51,269 nt of DNA from a phage. The DNA lies in sequence record PZ445518.1, one strand, 5' to 3'. The notes under the pieces were generated by a model. That model did not search any database. It worked only from the letters and a program-made list of their open reading frames with translations, and had not been told where the DNA came from. Both the position numbers and the translations under genes were made by a program. Below, piece by piece: positions 21,169 through 26,754 of this stretch (positions are counted from its first letter, which is position 1; the number at the start of each line of letters is the position of its first letter).

Positions 21169-22224
21169 ATGAGTGATTTTAACGCCTACACTAGCGAAGA
21201 AATGAGCAACGAGCTTTATCATGATCCTAACGCGTGGACGGCTGAATATGTCAGCGGTTCCAGCCTAGCGGAGATTTACAGCACTTGCCCGGCGTACTGG
21301 AAGTACAAGCCGCGCCAGGAAACTAAAGCACTTGTTTTCGGTACGCAGTCGCATACCAACTTTGAAAGCAAGGAGCTATTCGAAAAAACATATCGCCGCG
21401 CACCGTCGCAGGATGATTTTAAAGACCTGATCACTAGTCAAACGGCGTTAGCATCAAAGCTGAAATCTTTTGGCCTGAAAGGTACGACGGGTAAACAATA
21501 CCCTGAATTACTGGAAATGCTGTACAAGTGCGGCGAGGATCTCAATGTGTGGTGGCTTATCGAAATGATGGCAGAATGCCAGGCCGCAGCGGACGGAGTG
21601 CAGTTAATAGACGCTAAAGATTATGATGCCTGTGTAGCGATGCGGCGCGTACTTGAGGCCATACCGGAGCATAACGCTTGCATGAACAGCCCAACCGCGC
21701 AGCGTGAAATGTCAATATTTGGGATCATCAACGGCGTAAAAGTAAAAGTGCGTCTTGATCACGTTGACGTAAACAAGGATGTAAAGGCAACAATCATTAA
21801 CGGTTACGACGAAAAAGGCAGGCCGATTTATGAAGAAGTCACCTATCCAGAAGCGGTGATTATCACTGACTACAAAACAACGGTTAGCGCAAATCCGGTT
21901 GACTTCCAGCGCCTGGCTTACAATCACGGCTATTATCTTAAAATGGCTTTGCAACATGACTTATTCAAAAAGGCTTATCCAGACGAGGAAAGGCCAGTAA
22001 TTGTAAGATTGCTTGCGCAGGAGAAGAAAGAGCCTTACTTGCCGCTTGCTTTCCGCATGAATATTGAGCAATTGAAGATCGGGCGCATCCAGTACATGAG
22101 CGTGATCAACAAGTTCAACGTTTGCCAGCAGTTAGACGAATGGCCTTCGTATGCAAACGGGCAACCGGAAATTGATCTTGATACTCCTGATTGGGTTCGT
22201 GCTCAATTCAGGCATTATCTTTGA
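21169..22224 (+). CDS. PD-(D/E)XK family recombination exonuclease
   Basis: 351 aa; D...D/E-x-K arrangement (VRLDHVDV ... IITDYKTT); first gene of recombination module. Confidence 0.65.
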   Translation: MSDFNAYTSEEMSNELYHDPNAWTAEYVSGSSLAEIYSTCPAYWKYKPRQETKALVFGTQSHTNFESKELFEKTYRRAPSQDDFKDLITSQTALASKLKSFGLKGTTGKQYPELLEMLYKCGEDLNVWWLIEMMAECQAAADGVQLIDAKDYDACVAMRRVLEAIPEHNACMNSPTAQREMSIFGIINGVKVKVRLDHVDVNKDVKATIINGYDEKGRPIYEEVTYPEAVIITDYKTTVSANPVDFQRLAYNHGYYLKMALQHDLFKKAYPDEERPVIVRLLAQEKKEPYLPLAFRMNIEQLKIGRIQYMSVINKFNVCQQLDEWPSYANGQPEIDLDTPDWVRAQFRHYL

Positions 22225-22299
22225 TAAACTAAACAAATAGCTAAACTTTTATAATGGTTGGTGATATAATTCGCCAACCAGATAACGGGAGAATGAGGA

Positions 22300-22557
22300 A
22301 TGACAGACAAAGACAATGCCACATTATTGCATTTAGAACGATTCATTGATCGAGTAACCATTGCAATGAAAGAATTTATTAAGCCGATGAACATTAAAGA
22401 GTCGGAAGAAATGAAGACTTACATCAAGGACGTGGTTGCATCCATTGACAACGTTATCCTTGTTGCAACGATGAGCAAGGGAAACAAAGAGCGCGAGAGG
22501 TTGGTTGCTGAATCAACAGAAGAATTTATTAAAATGCTTGAAAGCGAGAAGGAATAA
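22300..22557 (+). CDS. hypothetical protein
   Basis: 85-aa ORF between exonuclease and annealing protein. Confidence 0.45.
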   Translation: MTDKDNATLLHLERFIDRVTIAMKEFIKPMNIKESEEMKTYIKDVVASIDNVILVATMSKGNKERERLVAESTEEFIKMLESEKE

Positions 22558-23214
<657 letters not shown>

Positions 23215-23257
23215 TAAACGGGGCGCTTGCGCCCCTTTTGTCATAGGAGAAAACAAA

Positions 23258-23710
23258 ATGCACGTTATTACAGGTGAGATTCGAAAAGAGCCAAAAGTAA
23301 AGCAAATGCCTAACGGCAGCACGCTATATGTTATTGAGCTTTCCGAACGATACAAAGACCGAGAAGGAAATTGGCAGTATACAAACTATGTGTTTTTCTT
23401 TAACGCGAAAACAGACGGCCTGAATGGTTGGTATGCTGAGGCGTTCCAGGTGGGCAAGGTTATTTCTGTTTCCTGCGATACCTTGCGAGTTGAAACGCGA
23501 GAATACAACGGAAAGATTTACAGTACCGTGCAGCCTGGCGGATTTGCAAACTTGCTATTTAGCCAGAGAGGTGAAAGCCAGCAACAATATCAGCAGCGAA
23601 CGCAAGGAGGATGGGGGCAACCACAACAGCAACAGCAACAAAATACTCAACAGCAGCCGCAGCAAAGCAATCAGCCTCCGATTGACTTTGACGACGATAT
23701 ACCATTCTGA
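23258..23710 (+). CDS. ssb: single-stranded DNA-binding protein
   Basis: OB-fold-sized N-terminal domain, Gln/Gly-rich linker, canonical acidic tail DFDDDIPF; ATG 23258 after GGAG. Confidence 0.8.
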   Translation: MHVITGEIRKEPKVKQMPNGSTLYVIELSERYKDREGNWQYTNYVFFFNAKTDGLNGWYAEAFQVGKVISVSCDTLRVETREYNGKIYSTVQPGGFANLLFSQRGESQQQYQQRTQGGWGQPQQQQQQNTQQQPQQSNQPPIDFDDDIPF

Positions 23711-23714
23711 TAAC

Positions 23715-23746
23715 AAAAAGCCCCGCATATGCGGGGCATTTTTTAT
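23715..23746. terminator. bidirectional terminator between ssb and tail-fiber-like gene
   Basis: AAAAAG CCCCGCAT at GCGGGG CATTTTTT. Confidence 0.75.
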
Positions 23747-24417
23747 TCTAACGTGGTTGGTTTGTTTACCAGTGCCGCTACAACCGCTTTTAGCTCGTCA
23801 ATTTCTTTTCTCATCTCATCGTTTTCCGCTTTCAGTTTCTTAACGTGGTGAATCAGTGGAACAGTGAGGCGGTCATACATAACGCCTTTCGCCACCATGC
23901 CATTACTTGAAGCAATGGCAGGATCTTCTCCTTCTTGCAGCGGTCGCCAGTGAACGTACTCCGGCGCAATTTCTCCAACCTCTTCCGCGATTAGCCCGTA
24001 CCATCCCCAATCTTTACGGTCGCTTTCACAAGTTGACCGATACCAAACAGGACGCATTTCAAGCATCAGATCCGCATATTCATCAATAACCGATTCTACG
24101 CTGCTCTTATAACGAGAAGAGGAAGTGGATCGTAAAACTTGCGACACTCCAGCATTTGGATCAAGCCATAAGTTTGCTGATTGAGCGGTTGTGTTAAGAT
24201 TAAATAAATAAAATGCATCGTTACCAGTTAGGGGGTAAAAACTCCCACTATACCTTCCGCTATCCAACTCGGATGATAGATCAGTTTGTTTTAGATACAG
24301 CTTCAACTTATTGTCAACATCAGTAGTTGATGCTTTTCCTGCGACATCCTGTTTTAGTGTTGAAACTTCATTTTTCAGCTTCGTTATATCACTAGGTATA
24401 ACAGTTACTGTAGCCAT
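23743..24417 (-). CDS. tail-fiber-like protein with C-terminal intramolecular chaperone (peptidase S74-like) domain
   Basis: SSSRYK Ser-Lys motif and WGWYGLIAEEVGEIAPEYV block resemble endosialidase-type chaperone domain; N-terminal coiled-coil. Confidence 0.55.
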   Translation of the reverse strand: MATVTVIPSDITKLKNEVSTLKQDVAGKASTTDVDNKLKLYLKQTDLSSELDSGRYSGSFYPLTGNDAFYLFNLNTTAQSANLWLDPNAGVSQVLRSTSSSRYKSSVESVIDEYADLMLEMRPVWYRSTCESDRKDWGWYGLIAEEVGEIAPEYVHWRPLQEGEDPAIASSNGMVAKGVMYDRLTVPLIHHVKKLKAENDEMRKEIDELKAVVAALVNKPTTLE

Positions 24418-24429
24418 TTTCCTAACTCC

Positions 24430-24708
24430 TTAAGCCCATTCTCTAATAGGCTGATCTAACTCAACCACGTATCCATTAAAAATTACGGCATCAAACTTAT
24501 CATCAATGATTCGCACATTGACGAAATAGCCGTCGTTCTTTCGCGCAATCTCATCGCCATCGTCAGATCGTGCAATTACTGTGTAAGTATTGCCGATCAC
24601 ATCGAGCAGGATTGTATCCTGAATGGATTCGTTTTCGTTCCATTCAATTTCTTCCAGAAAGGCGGAAAACTCCGCCTTGTCTACAAATTTCAGTGTTAAA
24701 TCACGCAT
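24430..24708 (-). CDS. hypothetical protein
   Basis: ATG at 24708 overlaps tail fiber stop (TAATG). Confidence 0.45.
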   Translation of the reverse strand: MRDLTLKFVDKAEFSAFLEEIEWNENESIQDTILLDVIGNTYTVIARSDDGDEIARKNDGYFVNVRIIDDKFDAVIFNGYVVELDQPIREWA

Positions 24709-26663
24709 TATACAATTTCCCCCAATTGATGATCTGTTAGTGCCTTGTGCCATATACGGAAGTTTCTAACGTGCCCGAAAAGATGACGTTCGCCCGTAGT
24801 TGTTTGTCCGCCAATCCTTATAGTAGCCGTTGATACTATATATCTCCATTCCGTTTTTGTTTCGCTTGATATTCTGGCATTACTTACACAACAAGTATTG
24901 TAATCACTCTTTACTCTCATTCCTATGATCATCTTTTTTAGTTTCGCATTCTCGTTAACCCTTCTGTTTGATTTACCTATATCGCAATAAGGGAATCCAT
25001 CACTATCGCCCTTGGCAGATCCGAAAGCAAGAATAATTTCCGCACCAGATTGATGACCTCCAGAACCAAAAACACGAGGCGCAGCACTTGGCGTCATACT
25101 CCAGTTTTTATGAGCTTCCACAAGCACTGTAAACGGCAAATTGTAAAGGTTGTTTTTTATTGGCAATGTAACCATATCGCTTGCCCTTGTTGTCGGACTT
25201 TCATTAGTTATAATGAATGATGAAGCGCAAGATCCAACCTCTACTTGAGGAGTTGTTAAATCCATAAAGCTATTTTCATCAAAAACTTCTCCTTGTTTAT
25301 TAACGACCTGTATTACCCCCCTAATGGAAGTTGATTCATCAGTAACTTTGTAAACTATTTCTGCAAAAATCCATTCCCCGTCTATGGTAGCGTTCTTTAG
25401 CACTATGTTTTTTGCGTCAACTCCAGAAGTTGCCACCCCTAAGTTATCGCAATCAATAATAGCAGAAGCAACAGAAGATAAAGGATCTCCCTTGTCAAAT
25501 CTTGCTGCAAATCTTACATTTTTCCCCTTAGCCCTAAAAGATATTGTAACTCCATCACCCTTTACAACTGCAATATTATTTGTAGTAAGTCCAGCTATAA
25601 TAGTGTAAGAGCCTACGCCACCTAAATATTTCCCTGGTTTAAATGTTGCATACTTAAACCCCCTTTCATCAGTCTTAGTTTCACCTCTTTCTAATCCTGT
25701 ATTTGGATTCCATGATTCAGGCTTATTTGAATTTACAAAATAGTTTGTTCTCTGCCCTTCAATCAAAAGACCATCCTTTTCAAATCTAGGTTCATCAATA
25801 GCAGCATCAGTAAGCAACCCAGACTTATTAATGTAAGTAGCGGTTGATGCACGTTTAAACTTAACAATCTTGTCACCTGGCATCGTGATCTCATCATCAC
25901 CTATGACAATCTTTTTGTATGACGGCGAGAATCCGGTGATCATATCCAGGGAATCATTAAATGGTATCCACACGTCAGGTAGAGGCTGCAATAAATCTTT
26001 GTAAGGTTCTGCGGCCTGTTTTGCGTATTCCTCCGCTTGATCTCGCGCACTTTCAGCGCCTGCCTTTGCGGTGTTCGCAGCATCACGCGCAGTTTCAGCG
26101 CCTTTTCTTGCAGTTTCAGCGCCAGTCTTTGCAGTGTTTGCAGCGTCGCGCGCGGATTCAGCGGCAGCCTTTGCAGTGTCAGCACCTTTCTTGCTATTCT
26201 CTGCATTTGTTGCGCTTGTCTTTGCGTTATTCTCGCTAGTTTTAGCTGCCTTCTGGCTTGCTGCGGCTGCGTCAGCATTTGTCTTTACGTCTTCCTGGAT
26301 CTTCTGTAGCTTATCCCAATCAAAATCCTTGATGATCTCAATAAATCCAGCAAGCTCCGACTCCTTTCCCTGGTAATAACGCAACGTTTCCGCTACGTCT
26401 TGCGCAAGACCGTCAACCGTTAACGAGTCATGAAGCAAGATCAGGTAATTTGTCTTCTGTACTACCGCGCCGCCAGTAGTAATTGCGCGAATGCTTGTAT
26501 CGCTAATCACTTCTGTAATCACAGCAGCTTGCAAAGGTTGAGCAAGAAAGAAAATAGTTGCGCCTGGGCGAATCAAGGTTAATTGCTCACGCCATTTTGT
26601 ACCGTAACCAGTTACATAACCTTGCGCGTCCATAGACGCTTGGCCTTGTCTGTAAATCGCCAT
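24708..26663 (-). CDS. tail fiber protein
   Basis: ATG at 26663 after AGGAGG; Ala-rich repeats (SARDAANTAK); C-terminal lectin/LamG-like region. Confidence 0.7.
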   Translation of the reverse strand: MAIYRQGQASMDAQGYVTGYGTKWREQLTLIRPGATIFFLAQPLQAAVITEVISDTSIRAITTGGAVVQKTNYLILLHDSLTVDGLAQDVAETLRYYQGKESELAGFIEIIKDFDWDKLQKIQEDVKTNADAAAASQKAAKTSENNAKTSATNAENSKKGADTAKAAAESARDAANTAKTGAETARKGAETARDAANTAKAGAESARDQAEEYAKQAAEPYKDLLQPLPDVWIPFNDSLDMITGFSPSYKKIVIGDDEITMPGDKIVKFKRASTATYINKSGLLTDAAIDEPRFEKDGLLIEGQRTNYFVNSNKPESWNPNTGLERGETKTDERGFKYATFKPGKYLGGVGSYTIIAGLTTNNIAVVKGDGVTISFRAKGKNVRFAARFDKGDPLSSVASAIIDCDNLGVATSGVDAKNIVLKNATIDGEWIFAEIVYKVTDESTSIRGVIQVVNKQGEVFDENSFMDLTTPQVEVGSCASSFIITNESPTTRASDMVTLPIKNNLYNLPFTVLVEAHKNWSMTPSAAPRVFGSGGHQSGAEIILAFGSAKGDSDGFPYCDIGKSNRRVNENAKLKKMIIGMRVKSDYNTCCVSNARISSETKTEWRYIVSTATIRIGGQTTTGERHLFGHVRNFRIWHKALTDHQLGEIV

Positions 26664-26678
26664 TTGTAAAATCCTCCT

Positions 26679-26700
26679 AAATAGCACTTTTTGCTAATGA
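26679..26700 (+). repeat. conserved 22-bp element, copy opposite to flanking genes
   Basis: AAATAGCACTTTTTGCTAATGA between primase terminator and tail fiber start. Confidence 0.5.
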
Positions 26701-26728: not shown

Positions 26729-26754
26729 AAAAAAAAACCCCGCATAAGCGGGGC
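26729..26754 (-). terminator. rho-independent terminator after primase
   Basis: Minus strand: GCCCCGC ttat GCGGGG followed by TTTTTTTTT. Confidence 0.7.

What the first reader, a model, noticed from the sequence alone, without database searches (positions are those of the whole stretch)
23743..24417. Separate small gene encoding a tail-fiber-type intramolecular chaperone domain
The 224-aa product has an N-terminal coiled-coil-like segment and a C-terminal region with a Ser-Lys dyad-like motif (SSSRYK) and a GLIAEEVGEIAPEYV block, resembling the self-cleaving chaperone domain of endosialidase-type tail fibers. Here it is a stand-alone gene next to, but not fused with, the main tail fiber gene (24708..26663), and both are encoded on the minus strand far from the tail module.
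Basis: partly seen in the sequence, partly recalled or inferred. Interest (0 to 1): 0.4.

Follow-up and report, generated by a model that had tools for sequence, protein, structure and literature searches.

The report
Short self-cleaving distal tail fibre gene
The small gene is real and does carry a self-cleaving "intramolecular chaperone" domain, but comparison with related phages indicates that it encodes a very short outer tail-fibre subunit that folds itself and docks on the main side fibre, rather than a helper that folds that fibre; this is an ordinary, already annotated kind of phage gene.

Summary

The "stand-alone chaperone" reading is not the best one. The gene is the third member of a conserved cassette: proximal lateral fibre, a 92-aa protein, then a distal fibre. 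This cassette occurs in T1-like, lambdoid, Queuovirinae and T5-like phages. Third-slot proteins share only a 16-aa N-terminal block (M-x-T-x-T-x-IP-x-DI-x-x-LK) and otherwise range from 224 to 583 aa. Variants without the chaperone domain are followed by a Tfa chaperone gene. Many loci have the proximal fibre and the 92-aa gene with no third gene at all.

So this is a minimal distal fibre subunit whose chaperone acts in cis. Attachment to the virion and self-cleavage are inferred, not shown. Low novelty.

The parts
23743..24417 (-). Complete gene for the 224-aa distal lateral tail fibre subunit carrying a C-terminal intramolecular chaperone domain
   Evidence: ORF. 100% identical to the Shigella phage JK16 gene annotated 'chaperone of endosialidase'. 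dN/dS 0.16-0.23.
24367..24417 (-). Residues 1-17, conserved N-terminal block MATVTVIPSDITKLKNE; inferred docking peptide and first heptads of the coiled coil
   Evidence: 13/16 identical to IrisVonRoten Gp24. 8-15/16 identical among slot occupants whose remainder is 19-35% identical. Matches the N-terminus of phrog_4563 and phrog_19752.
24256..24366 (-). Residues 18-54, heptad coiled-coil / alpha-beta coiled-coil stalk whose length varies among orthologues
   Evidence: a/d spacing. Indels of 21 and 63 bp in orthologues. AF2 helices 11-25 and 31-41. Weak match to the GCN4-fusion coiled-coil structure 7o9v.
24124..24255 (-). Residues 55-98, short beta-rich fibre tip immediately before the predicted cleavage site; includes invariant T76, T77, R96, T98
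   Evidence: Conserved columns. Four predicted strands, at low confidence. Aligns to the last ~195 positions of the 1385-position phrog_3299 profile, which carries no annotation, and to the C-terminal ends of annotated tail-fibre PHROGs.
24106..24123 (-). Residues 99-104, SSSRYK: predicted nucleophile S99 and general base K104; predicted cleavage between T98 and S99
   Evidence: Pfam S74 profile positions 1-6. K104 invariant and S99 at least 90% conserved. Same 5-residue spacing as MYRF S578/K583 (PMC3742443).
23746..24123 (-). Residues 99-224, Peptidase_S74 / intramolecular chaperone domain with C-terminal leucine zipper (helix 181-217)
24231..24235 (-). C5 homopolymer in codons 61-63, the site of a +1 frameshift in phages orkinos, JLBYU19 and AV105
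24426..24431 (-). Shine-Dalgarno sequence AAGGAG for the gene, overlapping the stop codon of the 92-aa gene
23720..23737 (.). Bidirectional intrinsic terminator-like hairpin shared with the convergent SSB gene
24430..24708 (-). 92-aa gene (phrog_1361), second gene of the cassette, function unknown
24708..26663 (-). Proximal lateral tail fibre gene (651 aa): Drexlerviridae N-terminal anchor, Ala-rich repeat stalk, phrog_1419 distal part with a lectin-like C-terminus
26737..26754 (-). Terminator-like hairpin between the primase gene and the fibre cassette

Best explanation
The gene encodes the smallest known version of the distal subunit of a three-gene lateral tail fibre cassette (proximal fibre, 92-aa protein, distal fibre).

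Proposed mechanism: three chains are brought into register from the C-terminus by the S74 intramolecular chaperone domain and its leucine zipper. This folds the short beta tip (residues 55-98) and the heptad coiled coil (7-50). Once the trimer is correct, S99/K104 cut between T98 and S99 and the chaperone trimer leaves. The mature 98-residue trimer attaches through its conserved N-terminal block (residues 1-17) to the distal end of the proximal fibre (24708..26663), possibly with the 92-aa protein.

The chaperone therefore works in cis on its own polypeptide, not on the neighbouring fibre.

Shown here: gene integrity and selection, domain identity, the conserved catalytic residues, cassette homology, the shared N-terminal block, and the pattern of a cis chaperone or a separate Tfa gene.

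Inferred: trimerisation, cleavage, attachment to the proximal fibre, presence in virions, and any receptor binding by the tip.
For: (1) Cassette homology. The window fibre is 52-54% identical over ~540 aa to IrisVonRoten Gp22 and VogelGryff gp22, and 44-46% identical to the Stf of the lambdoid phages IdasGreatGrand and PhiR49_1. The 92-aa protein is 46-53% identical to their middle gene. Gene order is the same in all.

(2) The N-terminal 16-aa block is 13/16 identical to IrisVonRoten Gp24. It is 8-15/16 identical among slot occupants of 224-583 aa whose remainders are only 19-35% identical. PMC11990801 models Gp24 as a distal T-shaped fibre attached to proximal fibre Gp22.

(3) Slot occupants with PF13884 (346, 384 and 574 aa; 36-52 bits) have no separate chaperone gene. 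The two without it (330 and 340 aa) are each followed 1-2 nt later by a Caudo_TAP (Tfa) gene, E 1e-27 and 5e-37.

(4) 45 of 76 usable IMG/VR loci carry the proximal fibre and the 92-aa gene with no third gene, so the proximal fibre type does not need it.

(5) The mature part and the chaperone part are both constrained: dN/dS 0.16 and 0.16 against PeterMerian, 0.23 and 0.23 for Idas against PhiR49.

(6) S99 and K104 are conserved and the fold matches solved IMC/ICA structures.

(7) Precedent for this logic: the N-terminal 45 aa of DT57C LtfB are shared with phiEco32 gp15, which was used to infer docking on LtfA (PMC4728585).
Against: The mature product would be only 98 residues with a ~45-residue tip, which is very small for a receptor-binding fibre. 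It lacks the Gp12-like and most of the T5-like binding domains of Gp24.

The tip is conserved rather than hypervariable, which is unusual for a receptor-binding tip.

The conserved N-terminal block coincides with the first heptads of the coiled coil, so part of its conservation could be structural rather than due to docking.

No multimer model, virion proteomics or cleavage data were available. The AF2 monomer is poor for residues 1-102 (pLDDT below 50).

The window sequence itself scores 0.1 bit below the Pfam cut-off.
Confidence: 0.62

Rival explanations
1. Docked stub or cap. The protein assembles and docks as in the best explanation, but the 98-residue mature trimer has no receptor-binding role. 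It would be a reduced derivative of a larger distal fibre, kept to cap or stabilise the docking site on the proximal fibre.
For: The mature part is very short and lacks recognisable binding domains. The tip is conserved between T1-like and lambdoid phages instead of varying. At least four independent frame-disrupting mutations occur in isolates, most of them listed with K-12 hosts.
Against: Purifying selection on the tip is as strong as on the chaperone domain, across lineages that are saturated at synonymous sites. The same tip plus chaperone module terminates long Stf-type fibres in E. coli prophages (P0037-P0040; phrog_3299), where it sits at the business end. Many loci do without any third gene, so an empty docking site is tolerated.
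Confidence: 0.2
2. Trans-acting chaperone (the first reader's implication, and the GenBank label 'putative lateral tail fiber chaperone'). The S74 domain protein helps the neighbouring 651-aa fibre to trimerise and is not itself a virion component.
For: The gene is co-transcribed with the fibre and always lies downstream of it. The annotation is used in the BASEL genomes. The product is small.
Against: The same fibre type occurs without the gene in 45 of 76 loci. What is conserved across slot occupants is the N-terminus, not the chaperone domain, and some occupants have no S74 domain and bring a Tfa gene instead. The residues just before the cleavage site, which are the chaperone's own client, are invariant. 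From published work on the family (PMC3742443 and papers cited there), the domain acts on sequence N-terminal to it in the same chain. I found no report of action in trans.
Confidence: 0.1
3. Relic. The ORF is a leftover 3' end of an older, longer fibre gene, cut off when a new fibre module was inserted, and has no function.
For: Residues 19-210 align to the last ~195 positions of the 1385-position phrog_3299 profile. JakobBernoulli has the chaperone domain fused to its fibre. Several isolates carry frameshifts.
Against: The gene is intact with its own strong ribosome-binding site. dN/dS is 0.16-0.23. The three-gene order is kept between lytic T1-like and temperate lambdoid phages at 55% protein identity. 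A dedicated N-terminus is shared with other stand-alone slot occupants.
Confidence: 0.03

Closest known systems
IrisVonRoten (Bas32, T5-like) lateral tail fibre cassette Gp22-Gp23-Gp24 (PMC11990801)
   Same: Same gene order. The proximal fibre is 52% identical over 540 aa, the 92-aa middle protein 47% identical, and the distal protein shares the N-terminal block (13/16) and a C-terminal S74 chaperone domain.
   Different: Gp24 is 574 aa with a Gp12-like and a T5-like receptor-binding domain (a T-shaped fibre). The window protein is 224 aa, with only a coiled coil and a ~45-residue tip before the cleavage site.
DT57C LtfA/LtfB branched L-shaped fibres (PMC4728585, PMC10713586)
   Same: A second fibre protein with its own S74 domain attaches to the virion through the first fibre rather than the tail. 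Docking was inferred from a short conserved N-terminus.
   Different: No sequence homology was tested here. DT57C gp108 (LtfA) and gp107 (LtfB) are numbered consecutively, so no intervening gene is apparent. LtfB is a full-size O-antigen-binding fibre.
Peptidase S74 intramolecular chaperone domains of K1F endosialidase, GA-1 neck appendage, T5 pb1 and MyRF (3gw6, 3gud, 4uw8, 7dc3)
   Same: Ser/Lys dyad with 5-residue spacing, a C-terminal leucine zipper, position at the C-terminal end of a trimeric fibre segment, and fold matches.
   Different: The client part is exceptionally short (98 residues). Sequence identity is low, with the Pfam score at the threshold.
JakobBernoulli (Bas07) type Drexlerviridae lateral fibre with a fused chaperone domain
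   Same: Same genomic position and the same N-terminal fibre anchor. Its C-terminal chaperone helix region is 37% identical to window residues 141-224.
   Different: It is a single 741-aa polypeptide with no 92-aa gene and no separate distal subunit.
Tfa / Caudo_TAP tail fibre assembly proteins
   Same: They supply the chaperone function for the slot occupants that lack an S74 domain.
   Different: They are an unrelated family encoded by a separate gene that acts in trans. The window has no such gene in the cassette.

Membership tests
Peptidase S74 / intramolecular chaperone (ICA) domain | Match to the family profile (PF13884) at or above the gathering score | tested here: inconclusive
   The window protein scores 21.9 bits against a cut-off of 22.0, E 2.2e-4, covering profile positions 1-57 of 58. 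27 of 29 aligned homologues match at E<=0.01, best 8e-09.
Peptidase S74 / intramolecular chaperone (ICA) domain | Catalytic Ser and Lys five residues apart at the start of the domain | tested here: met
   S99 and K104 align to profile positions 1 and 6. K104 is invariant and S99 at least 90% conserved in 29 sequences. The spacing matches MYRF S578/K583 (PMC3742443).
Peptidase S74 / intramolecular chaperone (ICA) domain | Fold like the solved chaperone domains | tested here: met
   [not shown]
Peptidase S74 / intramolecular chaperone (ICA) domain | C-terminal trimerising leucine zipper helix | tested here: met
   Helix 181-217 at pLDDT 80-94. Heptad hydrophobics V192, L195, M202, I206, L209, V213, L216.
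Peptidase S74 / intramolecular chaperone (ICA) domain | Trimerisation-dependent autoproteolytic release | not testable with these tools
   Needs expression and N-terminal sequencing or mass spectrometry of the fragments.
Distal subunit of the three-gene lateral tail fibre cassette (IrisVonRoten Gp24 type) | Third position after a homologous proximal fibre and a homologous ~92-aa gene | tested here: met
Distal subunit of the three-gene lateral tail fibre cassette (IrisVonRoten Gp24 type) | Shared N-terminal block M-x-T-x-T-x-IP-x-DI-x-x-LK | tested here: met
   Present in all 31 third-slot genes found among 76 usable loci. 13/16 identical to Gp24.
Distal subunit of the three-gene lateral tail fibre cassette (IrisVonRoten Gp24 type) | A recognisable receptor-binding domain between the anchor and the chaperone | tested here: not met
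   No domain hit in residues 1-98. Only ~45 residues remain, corresponding to the end of the tip.
Distal subunit of the three-gene lateral tail fibre cassette (IrisVonRoten Gp24 type) | Physical attachment to the proximal fibre in the virion | not testable with these tools
   No multimer prediction or proteomics was available. Attachment of Gp24 itself is a published prediction, not a solved structure (PMC11990801).
Trans-acting tail fibre chaperone (Tfa / Caudo_TAP-like role) | Homology to a known assembly-protein family | tested here: not met
   No Caudo_TAP or other chaperone family hit.
Trans-acting tail fibre chaperone (Tfa / Caudo_TAP-like role) | Obligate co-occurrence with its client fibre | tested here: not met
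   45 of 76 loci with the homologous fibre and 92-aa gene lack it. 178 phage records hold the 92-aa gene against 57 for this protein, although the second search would miss divergent slot occupants.

The most novel reading that the evidence does not exclude
The stand-alone S74 protein could be a true trans-acting assembly factor. Its conserved N-terminal coiled coil would dock on the proximal fibre or the 92-aa protein, and its chaperone trimer would template or proofread trimerisation of that fibre before cleaving itself off. That would make it the first S74 chaperone known to act on another polypeptide. A milder novel reading is that the C5 tract makes the distal tip a slippage-controlled on/off accessory.
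Probability: 0.08. Interest if true: 0.6.

Novelty: new member of a known kind. Interest (0 to 1): 0.3.

Why it matters
The value is mainly in annotation and engineering. GenBank records label this gene variously as "chaperone of endosialidase", "putative lateral tail fiber chaperone", "tail fiber domain-containing protein" or "hypothetical protein". Relatives are very common in E. coli prophages: one 90%-identity cluster holds 2,928 sequences and another 650.

Recognising it as the exchangeable third component of a portable fibre cassette, with a 16-residue N-terminal adaptor, tells phage engineers where a new receptor-binding module could be plugged into T1-like, lambdoid, Queuovirinae and T5-like phages. 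It also warns host-range predictors not to discard the gene as a chaperone.

It also provides a very small natural S74 substrate (98 + 126 residues) that could be handy for studying chaperone-assisted trimer folding. It does not change any general concept.

Tried and rejected
- Direct sequence search of PDB chains with the protein found only coiled-coil noise. A profile search gave only a weak hit to the chaperone helix of S16 gp37, 6f45, E 0.26. Fold comparison was needed instead.
- The AF2 monomer is unreliable for residues 1-102 (pLDDT below 50), so I draw no structural conclusion about the tip or the dock.
- A protein search of IMG/VR with the 224-aa query gave only 2 loci. Searching with the 92-aa alignment gave 80.
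- My first automatic call of the downstream ORF picked spurious in-frame or overlapping ORFs and was redone.
- Literature searches for a trans-acting S74 chaperone, for lambdoid Stf with this domain, and for the PhiR49 phages gave nothing relevant.
- Tandem-repeat search found no array inside the gene itself. The heptad length variation is seen only between genomes.
- The relic hypothesis was rejected on selection and synteny.

Full report
**Observation**

It has a strong AAGGAG ribosome-binding site 8 nt upstream of the ATG. A GC-rich hairpin with T-runs on both strands lies at 23720..23737, shared with the convergent SSB gene.

The window is a T1-like phage of the Drexlerviridae (Tempevirinae). 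This locus matches Shigella phage JK16 at 100% nucleotide identity over 93% of the query, up to the end of that record, and the 224-aa protein is identical to the JK16 gene annotated "chaperone of endosialidase". Orthologues in the BASEL phages PeterMerian and KarlJaspers are labelled "putative lateral tail fiber chaperone".

**Is the chaperone domain real?**

Yes.
- Pfam Peptidase_S74 aligns residues 99-155 to profile positions 1-57. The score is 21.9 bits, 0.1 bit under the gathering score. 27 of 29 aligned homologues hit the same family at E<=0.01.
- K104 is invariant and S99 at least 90% conserved. Other invariant residues include R96, T98, Y103, E108, R122, P123, R127, S128, D133, W137 and the GLIAEE block.
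- An AF2 model is confident only for the domain (pLDDT 70-94 from about residue 110). Its best Foldseek hit is the MyRF ICA domain, 7dc3 (E 1.3e-3, probability 1.00, 26-27% identity).
- The last helix (181-217) has a clean heptad pattern. This corresponds to the leucine zipper that MYRF needs for processing (PMC3742443).

**Is the gene functional?**

Yes. Nei-Gojobori dN/dS is 0.16 against PeterMerian, 0.23 between the two lambdoid copies and 0.18-0.21 among prophage copies. The values are similar for the part before the cleavage site and the chaperone part.

Length differences among orthologues (224, 231 and 245 aa) are 21-bp and 63-bp in-frame indels in the N-terminal coiled coil.

**Context changes the interpretation**

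The gene is the last of three in a unit bounded by terminator-like hairpins at 26754..26737 and 23737..23720:
- the 651-aa lateral tail fibre (24708..26663);
- a 92-aa gene (24430..24708) whose ATG overlaps the fibre stop codon as TAATG;
- this gene.

The same three-gene order, with all three proteins homologous, is found in four phage groups:
- the lambdoid temperate phages IdasGreatGrand and PhiR49_1, downstream of J and lom (fibre 44-46%, middle protein 46-51%, third protein 55-56% identical);
- the Queuovirinae phage VogelGryff;
- the T5-like phage IrisVonRoten (fibre 52% over 540 aa, middle protein 47%).

In IrisVonRoten the third gene is Gp24. This 574-aa protein is described in PMC11990801 as a T-shaped distal fibre with two receptor-binding domains and a C-terminal intramolecular chaperone, predicted to attach to the proximal fibre Gp22.

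The window protein and Gp24 are unrelated over most of their length. They share the first 17 residues (MATVTVIPSDITKLKNE against MVTKTVIPTDITKLKNE) and the S74 domain.

**Systematic test**

I used an alignment of the 92-aa proteins to fetch 80 IMG/VR loci and examined what follows the 92-aa gene. Of 76 usable loci:
- 45 go straight to a ~97-aa predicted membrane protein, with no third fibre gene;
- 31 have a third gene, and every one begins with M-x-T-x-T-x-IP-x-DI-x-x-LK.

These third genes fall into size classes of about 224-241, 330-340, 346-351 and 576-583 aa. Between classes the N-terminal 16-residue block is 8-15/16 identical, while the remainder is 19-35% identical.

The 346-, 384- and 574-aa forms carry PF13884 (36-52 bits). 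The 330- and 340-aa forms carry Gp34_trimer, gp37_trimer and Gp53-like_C domains instead, and each is followed 1-2 nt later by a Caudo_TAP (Tfa) gene, E 1e-27 and 5e-37.

So the slot holds an exchangeable fibre module. It brings its chaperone either in cis (S74) or as a separate gene (Tfa), and its only constant feature is the N-terminal block. That is the signature of an adaptor peptide, the same reasoning used for DT57C LtfB and phiEco32 gp15 (PMC4728585). It is the opposite of what a chaperone for the proximal fibre would show. The frequent absence of any third gene next to the same fibre type points the same way.

**Mechanism proposed**

- The S74 domain and its zipper trimerise the chains from the C-terminus. 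This folds the short beta tip (55-98, homologous to the terminal ~80 residues before the chaperone in long Stf-type fibres) and the coiled coil.
- S99/K104 then cleave at T98/S99.
- The 98-residue trimer docks by residues 1-17 on the proximal fibre, possibly with the 92-aa protein.

All steps after "the residues are conserved" are inference. The main weakness is the size of the mature product. It has no recognisable receptor-binding domain and its tip is conserved rather than variable. It may therefore be a reduced cap rather than an adhesin (rival explanation, probability 0.2).

The trans-chaperone reading is kept at 0.1 and the relic reading at 0.03.

**Dispensability**

Six deposited genomes have the gene split. 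There are at least four independent lesions:
- +1 C in the C5 tract (window 24231..24235) in orkinos, JLBYU19 and AV105;
- -1 G in ityhuna;
- -1 A in an A4 run in brachmannus (an unverified record);
- +2 nt in JLBYU10.

In orkinos, ityhuna, JLBYU19 and JLBYU10 the fibre and the 92-aa gene are annotated as intact. Four of the six list a K-12 host; AV105 lists strain ESBL128 and brachmannus gives no strain. On rough K-12 strains lateral fibres are not needed (PMC8594841). The losses fit an accessory host-range function but do not discriminate between the hypotheses.

**Novelty**

The domain, the gene and the multi-protein fibre architecture are all known, and the gene is already annotated, although under a label that is probably misleading. 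The contribution here is to place it as the minimal member of the exchangeable distal-subunit family and to define the shared N-terminal block. The finding is of low to moderate interest.

Noticed in passing
[not shown]
   Followed up: partly
[quoted passage not shown]: In the motif WHK[AE]L(T/N)D.Q at the end of the proximal fibre, the residue is T in all 28 scored loci that have a third (distal fibre) gene (12 distinct C-terminal variants). It is N in all 43 scored loci that lack one (4 variants). This could mark the docking site or could simply reflect linkage of the 3' block.
   Followed up: partly
window 24231..24235 (-): A C5 run in codons 61-63 is C6 in phages orkinos, JLBYU19 and AV105, splitting the gene. 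These three also share a 63-bp duplication, so they may be one lineage. It could be a slippage-prone on/off site or a sequencing artefact.
   Followed up: partly
window 26047..26183 (-): A 63-bp (21-aa) imperfect tandem repeat of 2.2 copies lies in the Ala/Lys-rich stalk of the main fibre gene (AKTSA.NAE.S...). It is annotated as repeat_region in related phages, and the region differs in length between genomes.
   Followed up: no
L009 6716-7003, L010 6716-7009, and 45 IMG/VR loci (e.g. L015): In lambdoid prophages the cassette is followed by a conserved ~97-aa hydrophobic protein (MDI[ST]P.LHALCAVAAQ...), whether or not the third fibre gene is present. It is absent from the window. Its function is unknown; a superinfection-exclusion or lysogenic-conversion membrane protein is one possibility.
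   Followed up: no
window 24709..24753 (-) and 26664..26687 (-): The mechanical ORF list extends two genes upstream of their likely starts. The 107-aa ORF most likely starts at M16 (ATG 24708, 92 aa). The 659-aa ORF most likely starts at ATG 26663 (651 aa). Both match the annotated orthologues and the PHROG alignments.
   Followed up: yes
window 21169..23710 (+): A recombination module converges on the fibre cassette: an exonuclease VIII-like gene (21169..22224), an Erf-like recombination protein (22561..23214) and SSB (23207..23710, with a Q-rich tail and a CAACAG microrepeat at 23624..23640). Names are taken from the annotated orthologues.
   Followed up: no
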